From: Candidatus Acutalibacter stercorigallinarum
GTDB lineage: Bacteria > Bacillota > Clostridia > Oscillospirales > Acutalibacteraceae
Assembly (NCBI GenBank): GCA_019112625.1
Contig: DXIW01000029.1
Coordinates: forward strand, 2,494 to 66,493
Length of the DNA stretch: 64,000 bases
Reading direction: 5' to 3'
The first letter of the stretch is position 1. Every line of letters starts with the position of its first letter. Shown here in pieces: positions 19,274 through 45,320 of this stretch. A model generated the notes under the pieces. It did no database searches. It was not told the DNA's origin and saw nothing but the letters and a program-made list of their open reading frames with translations. The translations under genes were made by a program, and so were the position numbers.

Positions 19274-20629
19274 TTACTTCTCCAGCTGCTCCGCGACGGC
19301 CTGGAGGGAGAGGGAGTGTTCTTTCGCGATGCGGGAGAGGTCGTCGTACTCGGGCTTTTGGCGGGTGACGCCCCAGCCGGAGGCGGTTTTTACCCGCACC
19401 GGGCCCCAGGGGGTCTGGCGCTCCTGCTGGGAGCGGGCCAGGGTGTACCGCTGGCACAGGTGCTCCCGCACCCCCAGGGTGGTGGTGTGGCGGAACATGG
19501 CCCGCACCAGGGGCTCGCGGTCCTCCAGGCGGCAGAGGACGGTGAGCATCACCCCGGGGCGGCTCTTCTTCATGCCGATGGGGGTGGTGAAAACGTCCAG
19601 GGCGCCGGCGGCCAGCAGCTGCTCCATGGCGAAGCCCAGGGCTTCGGGGGTCATATCGTCCAGGTTGCAGGAGAGCTCGGCCACCTGGTCCCCGGGAGCG
19701 TCCTCAGTCTGGCCCCACAGGGCGCGGACGCCGTTCATGGCCTCGAAATCCTTGGTGCCCATGCCGCAGCCTGTCTTTTCCACCCGCATCACCGGGGAGG
19801 GGCCGAAGGCGGTGACAAAATGCTTGAGGAGCGCCGCGCCGGTGGGGGTGCACAGCTCCCCCTGGACCGCGCCGCCGTAGGTGGGCACGCCCTGGAGGAT
19901 ATAAGCGGTGGCGGGGGCGGGCACCGGCAGGATGCCGTGGGCACACCGCACCTGGCCGCTGCCCACGTGCACCGGGGAGCACAGCACCTGGTCCGGGGCC
20001 AGCTCGTGGAGGAGCAGGCACACCGCGGTGATGTCGGCTACGGCGTCCAGGGCGCCCACCTCGTGGAAGTGGACCTGCTCCACGGGCACGCCGTGGGCGT
20101 GGCTCTCCGCCTCACCGATGAGCTGATATACAGCCAGCACGTCCTCTCTCACGGTGTCGGGCAGGTCTAGGTGGGAGAGGATGTGGCGGATTTCCCCCAT
20201 CCCCGCGTGGTGATGATGGCCGTGGCTGTGGTCGTGATCGTGGGTGTGGTCGTGGTCATGGGGGTGGTCGTGGTCGTGGGGATGGTCGTGGTCGTGGGGA
20301 TGGTCGTGGTCGTGGGGATGGTCATGGTCATGAGGGTGGTCATGGTCGTGAGGGTGGTCATGGTCGTGGGGATGGTCATGATGGTGGTGGCCCGCCAGGG
20401 CGAAGGGCACGTCATGGCTTGCCTCCTCCTCCCCGTGGACGGTGACGGAGAAGTGGGTGCCGGTGATGCCGCACTTTACCGAGGGGGCGGTGGTGGCCTC
20501 CACCCCGGGAATGCCCAGGGCGTTGAAGCGCCGGAGGAAGCCCTGGGGGTCCGGGTGGAGCTCCAGCAGGGCCCCGGCCAGCATGTCCCCGGCCGCGCCC
20601 ATATTGCATTGGAAATAGAGTGTTTTCAT
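19274..20629 (-). CDS. larC: Nickel pincer nucleotide cofactor biosynthesis protein LarC (nickel insertase)
   Basis: GAAGDMLAGAL, His-rich insert, VHFHEVGALD, HGILPVPAPAT, GELCTPTG, NLDDMTPE, MKKSRPG, KPEYDD; single uninterrupted frame. Confidence 0.95.
   Translation of the reverse strand: MKTLYFQCNMGAAGDMLAGALLELHPDPQGFLRRFNALGIPGVEATTAPSVKCGITGTHFSVTVHGEEEASHDVPFALAGHHHHDHPHDHDHPHDHDHPHDHDHPHDHDHPHDHDHPHDHDHPHDHDHTHDHDHSHGHHHHAGMGEIRHILSHLDLPDTVREDVLAVYQLIGEAESHAHGVPVEQVHFHEVGALDAVADITAVCLLLHELAPDQVLCSPVHVGSGQVRCAHGILPVPAPATAYILQGVPTYGGAVQGELCTPTGAALLKHFVTAFGPSPVMRVEKTGCGMGTKDFEAMNGVRALWGQTEDAPGDQVAELSCNLDDMTPEALGFAMEQLLAAGALDVFTTPIGMKKSRPGVMLTVLCRLEDREPLVRAMFRHTTTLGVREHLCQRYTLARSQQERQTPWGPVRVKTASGWGVTRQKPEYDDLSRIAKEHSLSLQAVAEQLEK
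20208..20390 (-). repeat. 18-bp tandem repeat encoding (HDHDHP)n in larC
   Basis: Six HDHDHP units plus HDHDHT and HDHDHS, flanked by poly-His. Confidence 0.95.
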
Positions 20630-20667
20630 GGATGATGCTCCTTTGGAACGCACAACGGCTGGCGCCG

Positions 20668-20695
20668 TTGACATTTTTTGGGGGTGTGATATAAT
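20668..20695 (+). promoter_or_regulatory. Near-consensus sigma-A promoter of the putative antitoxin RNA
   Basis: TTGACA-16-TATAAT with extended TGn; no credible plus-strand gene follows. Confidence 0.8.
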
Positions 20696-20700
20696 AGACA

Positions 20701-20791
20701 TAGAAAGAGAGCTTGCCGTCAGAAGGTCAGCCCTCAGATGTTGTCAAGAAGATGACCGCACACCGTGGCTGGGGGGCGGTCATTTTCTTTT
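20701..20791 (+). ncRNA. Putative type I antitoxin antisense RNA (about 90 nt)
   Basis: Own promoter; ends in aagaagatgaccgc/gcggtcattttctt hairpin plus U-run that overlaps the peptide stop codon. Confidence 0.7.
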
Positions 20792-20881
20792 GTTCCAGTA
20801 GGTCCACAGGCTCCAGAGGAACCCGGCGAACGCCACGAGCATGAGCATGATCTGACAGAAGTCATTCAGCGTCATGTACAT
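20780..20881 (-). CDS. Putative type I toxin, 33-aa single-TM peptide
   Basis: MYMTLNDFCQIMLMLVAFAGFLWSLWTYWNKRK*; hydrophobic core, basic C-terminus, SD held in a GAAA-capped hairpin. Confidence 0.75.
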   Translation of the reverse strand: MYMTLNDFCQIMLMLVAFAGFLWSLWTYWNKRK

Positions 20882-21056
20882 TTGGAATCCCCCCTTTCGG
20901 AGGGGCGCTGGCCGAGGCCAGCCAAAAGAATTTCGTACTCTCCTGAGGGAGGACGACCCCTCCGCTTTTTCGTGGAGGGCGGACCGCTGGGGCCGCTTTT
21001 ACAGCCCCGTACCCGACTTATGTGGCAAGCTCCCGCAGGGTCTCCCCTGCGGGTCT

Positions 21057-21085
21057 ATTGTAACAGAAAGAGACGGGAAAGGCAA
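21057..21085 (-). promoter_or_regulatory. Promoter of the putative toxin mRNA
   Basis: TTGCCT-17-TACAAT with extended TG on the minus strand, just past the larB stop. Confidence 0.7.
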
Positions 21086-21096
21086 GAAATCGCGGG

Positions 21097-21843
21097 TCAC
21101 AGGTGGTTGATCATGCTGGCCAGGTAGCCGGCGCCGAAGCCGTTGTCGATGTTCACCACGCTGACGCCGCTGGCGCAGGAGTTGAGCATGGACAGCAGCG
21201 CCGCCAGGCCCCCGAAGGCGGCCCCGTAGCCCACGCTGGTGGGCACGGCGATAACGGGGCAGTCGGAAAGTCCCCCGATGACGCTGGCCAGGGCGCCCTC
21301 CATGCCGGCGATGGCGATGATGGCCCGGGCGCTCATAATGTCCTCCAGATGGGACAGGGTGCGGTGGAGGCCCGCCACCCCCACGTCGTACAAACGGGTG
21401 ACGTGGTTGCCCAGCACCTCTGCGGTGAGGGCGGCCTCCTCGGCCACGGGCATGTCGCTGGTGCCGCCGGTGGCCACCACGATGGTGCCCTTGCCGGTGA
21501 CAGGGGGCATGTCCCCCACGATGCCCACCCGACCCATCTCGTAGTAGGTGAGGGGCAGGGCCTCCCCCACCACTTGGGCGGCCTCGGGGCTCATGCGGGT
21601 GATGAGGACGGCCTTCTCCCCCTGCTGGCGCAGGGAGGCGGCGATGTCCCGGATCTGCGAGGGTGTCTTGCCCGCGCCGTAGATCACCTCGGCGGCGCCC
21701 TGGCGCAGGCCCCGGTGGTTATCCACCTTGGCGAAGCCCAGGTCCTGGAAGGGCTCCATTTTCAGCCGCAGAATGGCCTGGTCCACCGGGCACTTGCCGG
21801 CGGCCACCTGCTCTAACAGGGCGCGTATCTCTTGCTGGTCCAT
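21097..21843 (-). CDS. larB: Nickel pincer cofactor biosynthesis protein LarB (PurE-like carboxylase/hydrolase)
   Basis: EVIYGAGKT, GTSDMPVAEEA, DVGVAGLHR, AGMEGAL, PTSVGYG, NIDNGFGA. Confidence 0.96.
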   Translation of the reverse strand: MDQQEIRALLEQVAAGKCPVDQAILRLKMEPFQDLGFAKVDNHRGLRQGAAEVIYGAGKTPSQIRDIAASLRQQGEKAVLITRMSPEAAQVVGEALPLTYYEMGRVGIVGDMPPVTGKGTIVVATGGTSDMPVAEEAALTAEVLGNHVTRLYDVGVAGLHRTLSHLEDIMSARAIIAIAGMEGALASVIGGLSDCPVIAVPTSVGYGAAFGGLAALLSMLNSCASGVSVVNIDNGFGAGYLASMINHL

Positions 21844-21891
21844 CTGGTCCAGCTCCTTTCGTTATGGGTGTAGGGTGGTGCGGTGTGTGGG

Positions 21892-21977
21892 GCCCGCCCG
21901 CTCCGGCCTTGGCCTTGGGGCAAGGCCGGGCCCCCGCGGAGCGGGGGCGCCGCCGGGAGGCGGCGGAGCGGGCGGGC
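21892..21977. repeat. Four-way-junction element, copy 2 (larE-larB spacer)
   Basis: Closing stem gcccgcccgctccg/cggagcgggcgggc enclosing gccttg..caaggc, gcccccgc-GGA-gcgggggc and ccgcc-GGGA-ggcgg. Confidence 0.7.
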
Positions 21978-21987
21978 GGGTGGCGGT

Positions 21988-22731
21988 CTAGCGGGGGTCC
22001 AGGTCCAGCAGGACGGCGGCGAACCAGGGGGACAGGGCCTGGCGGATGGCCTCCCGCTCCTGGGCGGCGCGGGCCAGCTGGGCGGCGGGGAGCTGGAGCC
22101 GGGCGGCCCCGTGGAACACCCGCACCCGGAGGTCGGAGAAGCCCAGGGCGAACAGGGCGTCCTCGGCGCGTTCCACCTTTTCCAGGACCTGCGGGGTGAG
22201 GGGCTCCCCGGTGGGGACCCGGGTGGCCAGGCAGGCGTAGGCCGGCTTGTTCCAGGTGAAGAGGCCCAGGTCTTTGGAGCGTTTGCGCACCTCCGTTTTG
22301 GTGATGCCGCACTCCCGCAGGGGGGAGCGGACGGAGAGCTCTTTGAGGGCCCGCATGCCGGGGCGGTCCCCGGCATCGTCGGAGGCGTTGGTGCCGTCGA
22401 TGAGCAGGGAGTAGCCGTCGGCCAGGGCCTGGTCCCGCAGGGCGGTGAAGAGGGCGGCCTTGCAGTGGTAGCACCGGTCCGGGCCGTTTTGCCGCACCTG
22501 GGAAAGGGCCAGCACGTCCAGCTCGATGAGTTTCAGCTCCGCGCCCAGCTGCTGGCAGAGGCGTTTCGCGTCCGCCAGCTCGAAGGCGGGCTGGAAGGGG
22601 GTTTTGACGAAATAGGGCTGCACCTGGGCCCCCAGCTGCAGGCCTGCCGCCAGCAGGTAGGCGGAATCCACGCCGCCGGAAAAGCCCAGGGCGGCTTTGG
22701 GGTGGCGGCGGAAAAAGTCCCGCAGGTCCAT
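21988..22731 (-). CDS. larE: ATP-dependent sulfur transferase LarE
   Basis: PP-loop FSGGVDS, RCYHCK, DGTNASD..DRPG, CLATR, LRVR. Confidence 0.94.
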   Translation of the reverse strand: MDLRDFFRRHPKAALGFSGGVDSAYLLAAGLQLGAQVQPYFVKTPFQPAFELADAKRLCQQLGAELKLIELDVLALSQVRQNGPDRCYHCKAALFTALRDQALADGYSLLIDGTNASDDAGDRPGMRALKELSVRSPLRECGITKTEVRKRSKDLGLFTWNKPAYACLATRVPTGEPLTPQVLEKVERAEDALFALGFSDLRVRVFHGAARLQLPAAQLARAAQEREAIRQALSPWFAAVLLDLDPR

Positions 22732-45029: not shown

Positions 45030-45069
45030 AATCAAGCGTGACTGCACAGGCGCTGTTTTAGGCGCCAGA

Positions 45070-45320
45070 TATGCGATGAAGCGGGAGGTTGCGGCCCTTG
45101 CGGCCGGTTTTTCCGTGGAGTATGTCCGATTTGAAACCGGGCGAAAGAATTTGGACGGCTGGAACCACCGGGTCTTCCCGGAAGGCCGATTTTATGCCGG
45201 ACAAAGGATGTTATGGGTTTTGACTCTATCCCCGGGGTCCGCTGCGCGGATCGCCGGTTTTTCTATGTCGAGGGTGGGAACACCCGGAACAGTGTTGAGA
45301 AACCCAGCCCGCCGAATGAA
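45070..45320 (+). ncRNA. Putative structured S10 (rpsJ) leader
   Basis: About 300-nt non-coding leader; gcgatgaagcgggaggttgc...ttccgtggagtatgtc resembles, from memory, Firmicutes rpsJ leaders. Confidence 0.55.

What the first reader, a model, noticed from the sequence alone, without database searches (positions are those of the whole stretch)
20668..21085. Unannotated type I toxin-antitoxin-like module inserted between larB and larC
Seen: (a) minus-strand promoter TTGCCT-17-TACAAT; (b) ~170-nt leader with the SD in a ccctcc-GAAA-gggggg hairpin; (c) 33-aa peptide MYMTLNDFCQIMLMLVAFAGFLWSLWTYWNKRK; (d) convergent near-consensus promoter for a ~90-nt RNA whose terminator overlaps the peptide stop; (e) complementary 5' and 3' mRNA segments (21024-21032 with 20709-20717; 20943-20949 with 20731-20737). 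Known: this is the architecture of Firmicutes type I systems such as txpA/RatA, bsrG/SR4 and Fst. Inference: it sits inside a biosynthetic operon with no mobile genes, so lar transcripts must cross it, the antisense RNA could target larC mRNA, and the toxin promoter could drive larC.
Basis: partly seen in the sequence, partly recalled or inferred. Interest (0 to 1): 0.8.

Follow-up and report, generated by a model that had tools for sequence, protein, structure and literature searches.

The report
Clostridial toxin-antitoxin cassette with end-locked mRNA
A small cassette that likely works as a toxin-antitoxin pair (a conserved membrane-type peptide gene facing a short antisense RNA gene) has landed between two nickel-cofactor genes by chance; it is one of five copies in this genome and belongs to a widespread, apparently uncatalogued family in Clostridia whose messenger RNA is predicted to pair its two ends and may thereby loosen its own block on translation.

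Summary
The cassette is real; the lar link is incidental. Both promoters, the 33-codon ORF, the SD hairpin and the antisense terminator are present. The ORF is under purifying selection (pN/pS 0.05-0.23). Near-identical RNA contigs cover the cassette in 5 of 6 metatranscriptome runs (unstranded). The genome holds five such cassettes beside unrelated genes; 0 of 22 relatives carry one between larB and larC. A model of the antisense gene hits 40 of 58 genus genomes and 34 of 151 class genomes. All share one RNA scaffold but carry very different 20-40-residue peptides; 3 of 37 pass Pfam Hol_Tox, this one does not. No Rfam match. The layout is txpA/RatA-like. What is new is a covarying 5'-3' helix. 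Folding predicts it makes the ribosome site about 2 kcal/mol easier to open (43 of 52), the reverse of hok and aapA. The anti-SD pairings of that model show no covariation, and toxicity is untested. My four look-ups found no earlier scan report of it.

The parts
21057..21085 (-). Predicted promoter of the peptide gene (TTGCCT-17-TACAAT, extended -10)
   Evidence: similar promoters at the same place in relatives
21035..21050 (-). Hairpin at the predicted 5' end of the mRNA
   Evidence: fold; present with changed sequence in relatives; coordinates
21024..21034 (-). 5' arm of long-range helix P1
   Evidence: in the sibling alignment 6 of 9 pairs show two-sided change
20975..20987 (-). 5' arm of long-range helix P2 (segment 1); otherwise pairs with segment 2
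   Evidence: covariation in siblings
20957..20964 (-). Segment 2 (CGGAGGGG), exact complement of the anti-SD; predicted anti-anti-SD once P2 has formed
   Evidence: constrained folds, (prediction)
20889..20905 (-). Hairpin that hides the Shine-Dalgarno sequence (anti-SD 20899-20905, SD 20889-20894)
   Evidence: kept in 6 of 6 copies of this subfamily
20780..20881 (-). 33-aa hydrophobic peptide ORF, basic C-terminus; candidate toxin
   Evidence: pN/pS 0.05-0.23 and 19-residue hydropathy 1.88; exact sequence on 387 contigs, no name shown
20749..20793 (+). Terminator of the antisense RNA, overlapping the peptide stop codon
20701..20793 (+). Predicted antisense RNA of about 90 nt; candidate antitoxin
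   Evidence: promoter and terminator; own model R1 scores 95.9 bits here by construction and finds relatives; strand not shown by the RNA data
20707..20735 (-). 3' arms of P2 (20725-20735) and P1 (20707-20717), followed by a U-rich tract; predicted mRNA end
   Evidence: RNA contigs end at 20712-20733 in four runs and 20681 in one
20668..20695 (+). Promoter of the antisense RNA (TTGACA-16-TATAAT)
   Evidence: TATAAT invariant in 14 of 14 aligned copies (these were picked with that motif)
21097..21843 (-). larB (flank, not part of the cassette)
   Evidence: NF033503 above cut-off
19274..20629 (-). larC (flank, intact, His-rich linker; not part of the cassette)
   Evidence: TIGR00299 and NF052512 above cut-off

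Best explanation
This is likely a type I toxin-antitoxin cassette of the txpA/RatA layout, one of five related cassettes in this genome, that inserted into the larB-larC spacer without evidence of a role in nickel-cofactor control. Shown: two facing promoters, a conserved hydrophobic ORF, a covarying antisense terminator, covarying 5'-3' helices in relatives, and RNA over the cassette. Inferred: the mRNA of about 345 nt is held quiet by a local SD hairpin; the antisense RNA pairs with its last 90 nt or so and sends the duplex to RNase III, as RatA and SR4 do; the peptide inserts in the membrane and arrests growth when the antisense RNA runs out. Predicted, weaker (about 0.35): pairing of the 3' end with the 5' leader frees a G-rich segment that competes for the anti-SD, so the full-length mRNA is the more translatable form and antisense binding also refolds it shut. 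Read-through to larC is a side effect of the position.
For: Anatomy. Selection on the ORF: (14 informative pairs of 6 copies, not independent). Paralogs in the same genome with other peptides and neighbours. Family range; up to 32 hits in one genome and tandem arrays. Covariation: terminator, 5'-3' helices 97% paired with 10 of 25 pairs changed on both sides, 0 of 500 shuffles, leader hairpin B 5 of 7 pairs. Own 5' arm binds own 3' arm better than the mean foreign arm in 51 of 52. Each of the five antisense RNAs binds its own mRNA best. RNA contigs with 0-4 differences over the cassette in 5 of 6 runs from 4 studies. Sibling peptides pass Hol_Tox (3 of 37) and by eye resemble the C. bolteae entry of the TxpA alignment in the supplement of PMC2887945. 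RBS opening cheaper in the full-length fold than with a shuffled 3' end: 43 of 52 (3 opposite) and 15 of 17 in other families.
Against: No toxicity or translation data. This peptide has no Pfam, NCBIfam or PHROGs family, only a weak profile match to its siblings (probability 16.9%) and Atlas neighbours at 0.88, below the reliable range. RNA contigs are unstranded, could include DNA, came from runs chosen for holding this stretch, and one run (X17) showed no cover at 97% likeness. For the activation step: the anti-SD pairings show no covariation, hairpin A only weak covariation, the SD hairpin stays closed in the best fold of both states in this subfamily, opening still costs 8-10 kcal/mol here, and one of six subfamily copies goes the other way. 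No match in phage or plasmid collections.
Confidence: 0.8

Rival explanations
1. Antisense-controlled small membrane protein that is not toxic at natural levels (for example a modulator of a membrane complex or a phage-exclusion peptide); the RNA control is as described.
For: The scaffold carries very unlike cargoes, including short MP.TLT.HI-type peptides. PMC2887945 reports a candidate (YhzE-2) that was not toxic on overexpression (passage).
Against: Tight SD sequestration, a consensus-perfect antisense promoter, copy-number expansion and Hol_Tox-positive siblings are what toxins need and harmless peptides seldom do (inference).
Confidence: 0.12
2. Within the toxin-antitoxin reading: the 5'-3' helix only stabilises and stores the mRNA (as recalled for Fst RNA I, and shown for aapA and hok), and 3' trimming, not full length, activates it.
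For: This is the described rule for 5'-3' pairing (PMC6733600 passages; PMC13000454 introduction). The predicted shift is only about 2 kcal/mol.
Against: Here the 3' arm pairs far upstream of the SD and contains no anti-SD; removing it is predicted to tighten, not free, the RBS in 42 of 52 cassettes (6 opposite).
Confidence: 0.35
3. The cassette has been co-opted to control larC (toxin promoter drives larC, or the antisense RNA cuts the lar transcript).
For: No other promoter-like site before larC; no canonical terminator after the cassette on the lar strand, whereas five related copies with a similar flank have one; two RNA contigs reach upstream of the predicted start, to 21092 and 21109.
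Against: 0 of 22 relatives have it here; the spacer takes unrelated inserts; the degV-adjacent paralog has the same geometry; no near-identical RNA contig joins it to larC.
Confidence: 0.06
4. A chance ORF inside a structured repeat (MITE or REP-like) or a purely non-coding RNA.
For: 30 model hits got no ORF from my parser; the spacer holds repeat-like inserts in relatives.
Against: Purifying selection on the ORF; SD plus hydrophobic ORF ending at the hairpin in 59 parsed copies.
Confidence: 0.02

Closest known systems
[quoted passage not shown]
   Same: Convergent genes overlapping at their 3' ends, small hydrophobic peptide with charged tail, SD held in a short GC helix. SR4 is reported to tighten the RBS by refolding bsrG mRNA.
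   Different: No sequence match to their Rfam models; overlap about 90 nt against 100-140; txpA has its own terminator hairpin, while 28 of 34 scaffold copies have none downstream; a covarying helix of about 25 bp joins the extreme 5' and 3' ends.
Pfam Hol_Tox PF16935 and the predicted TxpA-like peptides of Clostridiales (PMC2887945, passages and one supplement search)
   Same: 3 of 37 peptides on the same scaffold pass the cut-off; MS[TA]YE.L-type siblings look like the listed C. bolteae peptide.
   Different: This Trp-rich peptide does not match at E up to 1; only 2 full-length representatives among 1.84 billion proteins.
C. difficile type I systems RCd8-RCd15 (PMC6563280, PMC7699646, passages)
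   Same: Clostridial, multi-copy, convergent, long 5' UTR, often on mobile DNA.
   Different: I did not align their sequences; no Rfam match; no CRISPR or riboswitch link seen here.
aapA/IsoA, hok/Sok and timP/TimR (PMC6733600 passages; PMC13000454 abstract and introduction)
   Same: Long-range RNA pairing gates toxin translation; timP is activated by structure alone.
   Different: In aapA and hok the 5'-3' pairing inactivates and the antitoxin binds the 5' region; timP's switch is described in the 5' UTR. Here the antitoxin covers the 3' arm, and the pairing is predicted to favour translation.
Fst/RNAII of the par locus (PMC8167048, passages)
   Same: 33-residue membrane peptide, convergent genes.
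   Different: par RNAs share a bidirectional terminator and pair through direct repeats; here the overlap is one long continuous stretch and there is no Fst match.

Membership tests
Type I toxin-antitoxin system | Small (20-60 aa) hydrophobic protein encoded on a 150-400 nt mRNA | tested here: met
   33 aa, hydropathy 1.88, pN/pS 0.05-0.23; predicted mRNA about 345 nt; size ranges from PMC8594479
Type I toxin-antitoxin system | Cis-encoded antisense RNA gene of 60-200 nt with own promoter and terminator | tested here: met
   (sequence and covariation)
Type I toxin-antitoxin system | Both RNAs are made | tested here: inconclusive
   RNA contigs over the cassette in 5 of 6 runs, but unstranded
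Type I toxin-antitoxin system | SD sequestered in the toxin mRNA | tested here: met
   predicted fold, conserved in 6 of 6 subfamily copies; not probed
Type I toxin-antitoxin system | Peptide is toxic and the antisense RNA neutralises it | not testable with these tools
   needs induction and rescue assays
TxpA/RatA-type (BsrG, BsrE) | Convergent 3'-3' overlap of about 100 nt or more | tested here: met
   about 90 nt from the stop codon region to the mRNA end; slightly shorter than the 100-140 bp quoted in PMC6562991
TxpA/RatA-type (BsrG, BsrE) | Peptide homology (Hol_Tox PF16935) | tested here: not met
   no hit for this peptide; met for 3 of 37 relatives on the same scaffold
TxpA/RatA-type (BsrG, BsrE) | Antitoxin matches a curated Rfam family | tested here: not met
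   no match at gathering score in the window or 40 related loci; best weak hit ctRNA_pT181, 27 bits against 56
TxpA/RatA-type (BsrG, BsrE) | RNase III cleaves the duplex | not testable with these tools
   inferred from the literature
Fst/RNAII (par) | Overlap limited to a shared terminator plus direct repeats; Fst peptide match | tested here: not met
   continuous overlap; no Fst hit in Pfam
lar operon regulator | Conserved link to larB-larC | tested here: not met
   0 of 22 relatives

The most novel reading that the evidence does not exclude
This is the window onto a class-wide Clostridial type I toxin-antitoxin superfamily defined by one RNA chassis with swappable peptide cargo, in which the mRNA is switched ON by its own 3' end: the 5'-3' helix forms only when transcription finishes, may act as the terminator stem itself (it is followed directly by a U-rich tract), releases the anti-SD, and is exactly what the antitoxin seizes. 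That would invert the hok/aapA rule.
Probability: 0.3. Interest if true: 0.75.

Novelty: new variant of a known kind. Interest (0 to 1): 0.47.

Why it matters
Type I systems in Clostridia are described almost only for C. difficile, and they are usually found by peptide similarity. Here one RNA model finds them in about two thirds of the genus sample and over a fifth of a class-wide sample, with cargoes that peptide searches would never join. That gives an annotation handle on many unnamed gut-bacterial small proteins and a ready set of natural variants for testing how a long toxin mRNA avoids being translated while it is being made. The lar insertion itself matters little.

Tried and rejected
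Lar-specific role: rejected (two weak model hits of 18-20 bits in L008 and L013 lie outside the spacer). Word-index protein search and the search for related loci do not take 33 residues. Exact DNA patterns were too strict: 1 hit in genome contigs, 0 in viral contigs; the pattern had the spacer wrong and says nothing about range. Blastn against phages and plasmids: no match. PHROGs: nothing convincing. Covariation for segment 3-SD and segment 1-SD: not above shuffles. Lack of near-identical RNA cover over larC is no proof of silence; both piece tables were cut. In DNA run X4 the cassette contig has depth 8 against 28-36 for lar flanks, in X8 26.9 against 25.4, and one RNA contig skips 20617-21115 at 90% likeness: hints of a cassette-free allele or relative, not shown. 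L090 was fetched on the wrong side and not used. No structure or complex prediction was run. Literature: searches found no paper on this scaffold; most subscription papers, the T1TAdb contents and one supplement file of PMC2887945 were not seen, and candidate-RNA catalogues outside Rfam may hold it.

Full report
Observation. The two promoters exceed chance (2 against 0.3 in shuffles) and the predicted mRNA folds end to end at z = -8.1. The flanks are larB and larC, with larE upstream. The insert is 56% G+C against 68-69% in the flanking genes. One detail changes: the 3' arm at 20725-20735 pairs with 20975-20987, not 20943-20949, in the best fold and in relatives.

The peptide is a real gene. 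Six copies of this Trp-rich subfamily show pN/pS of 0.05-0.23 (pairs are not independent). It has no Pfam, NCBIfam or PHROGs family. A full HMMER scan gave 6 hits, 2 of them full length. The exact sequence is on 387 contigs.

It is one of many. The genome holds four more cassettes: one with an 82%-identical peptide between a DUF2229 gene and degV, and three with an MSDFE-type peptide. A covariance model of the antisense gene, built from 14 copies, hits 40 of 58 genomes of the genus and 34 of 151 drawn across the class, with up to 32 hits per genome and tandem arrays (only part of the candidates were scored, so these are floors; E-values are rough). From the genus loci I held, my parser called an ORF for 59 distinct hits and none for 30, which I did not resolve one by one; from 24 class loci it called 18. 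The peptides differ widely. 3 of 37 scanned pass Pfam Hol_Tox, and some resemble by eye the C. bolteae entry of the TxpA alignment in PMC2887945. Rfam gave no match in the cassette or in 40 related loci. Some copies lie beside DUF3991/Toprim, DUF7659 and DUF1281 genes, which I recall as typical of conjugative elements; the recombinase label I gave neighbouring ORFs is recalled and Pfam did not confirm it. The window copy shares a short downstream flank with those copies, a hint at its origin. The one named record with a same-subfamily cassette is Ca. Acutalibacter pullistercoris, and most holders with a habitat on record are gut or chicken-gut metagenomes.

The lar position is incidental. In 22 relatives with adjacent larB and larC, the spacer is 19-88 bp in 16 and holds unrelated inserts of 215-661 bp in 6; none has the cassette. 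larC is intact and keeps a ribosome site like that of close relatives. There is no other promoter-like site before it, so it presumably depends on read-through, as degV does behind the paralog; no near-identical RNA contig showed this.

Expression. RNA runs hold 0.41-0.53 of the words of an 801-bp query, the DNA and unclassified holders 0.78-0.99. Laid out, 5 of 6 RNA runs from 4 studies gave contigs with 0-4 differences that span the cassette, from 20681-20733 to 21035-21109; X17 gave none at 97% likeness. Two DNA runs covered the flanks too. Contigs carry no strand and may include DNA, so this supports transcription of the cassette but not the antisense RNA as such.

RNA mechanism. In 25 aligned siblings the 5'-3' helices are 97% paired with 10 of 25 pairs changed on both sides, and a leader hairpin compatible with them covaries too. 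The antisense RNA covers the whole 3' arm. With that arm blocked, the ribosome site costs on average 2.2 kcal/mol more to open (42 of 52, 6 opposite); shuffling the last 40 bases gives the same shift (43 of 52, 3 opposite), and 15 of 17 distant copies agree. Seven of the 59 were dropped first: five for a weak duplex (two cut by contig ends), two for a broken or inserted layout; one of 18 class copies was dropped likewise. Kin are not independent. In the window copy the freed segment 20957-20964 is the exact complement of the anti-SD. Against this model: the anti-SD pairings show no covariation, hairpin A only weak, and the SD hairpin of this subfamily stays shut in the best fold either way. 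28 of 34 copies with enough flank have no canonical terminator downstream; in most the helix is followed directly by a U-rich tract, which could be a terminator or just the A-rich start of the antisense RNA.

Comparison. It works like txpA/RatA and bsrG/SR4 (PMC6562991, PMC3531473; passages read), and SR4 is a precedent for refolding the RBS from the 3' end. It is not a member by peptide or Rfam test, and it is not Fst-like (PMC8167048, passages). In aapA and hok the 5'-3' pairing silences the mRNA (PMC6733600, passages); timP shows activation by structure alone (PMC13000454, abstract and introduction). PMC6563280 (passages) notes that homology searches found known toxin families in few Clostridia. 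Of PMC8594479 I read parts 1-3 of 6; of PMC10730256, PMC7699646 and PMC13524815, passages. Eight literature searches found no description of this scaffold, within the limits given under Tried and rejected.

Verdict. A real, probably functional type I toxin-antitoxin-like cassette; a new variant of a known kind. The lar link that drove the first score is not supported. The value lies in the class-wide RNA chassis and the testable prediction that the 3' end activates.

Noticed in passing
window 19274-22731; G000 and genus: larE-larB-larC is present but no LarA domain (PF09861) was found in this genome (86% complete), and only 11 of 58 genus genomes have one above cut-off, although larB/larC matched 19 of 24. 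PMC13524815 shows non-LarA users of this cofactor exist, so the user here is unknown.
   Followed up: partly
larB-larC spacer in L002, L003, L004, L009, L011, L047: Six relatives carry unrelated structured, repeat-like inserts of 215-661 bp at the same spot; several share a GCCTTTT..CAAAAGGC-type motif. Possibly miniature mobile repeats; the spacer looks like an insertion hot spot.
   Followed up: no
L116-L119 (G064), L113 (G060): Antisense-like genes occur in same-strand pairs about 430 or 140 bp apart; in L113, L116 and L117 my parser called a peptide ORF for only one of the pair. Possibly one toxin with two antitoxins.
   Followed up: no
L088:1582-1662, L123:311-391, L113:262-342: The same scaffold carries MP.TLT.HI-type peptides of 25-27 residues with a basic tail that overlaps the hairpin, unlike the helix-type cargoes.
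   Followed up: no
L029:1-423: A HicA toxin gene and a likely HicB partner lie about 1.1 kb from the paralogous cassette.
   Followed up: no
run X20, around 20774-20914: A short contig of a related copy has depth 518 in this RNA run, suggesting a very abundant paralog transcript; depth of contigs is a poor measure.
   Followed up: no
window about 20200-20340: larC has a long His-Asp-Pro repeat linker whose length varies between strains (66-bp skip in run X8).
   Followed up: no
window 45068-45144: S10-Clostridia ribosomal protein leader, the only Rfam match in the window.
   Followed up: no
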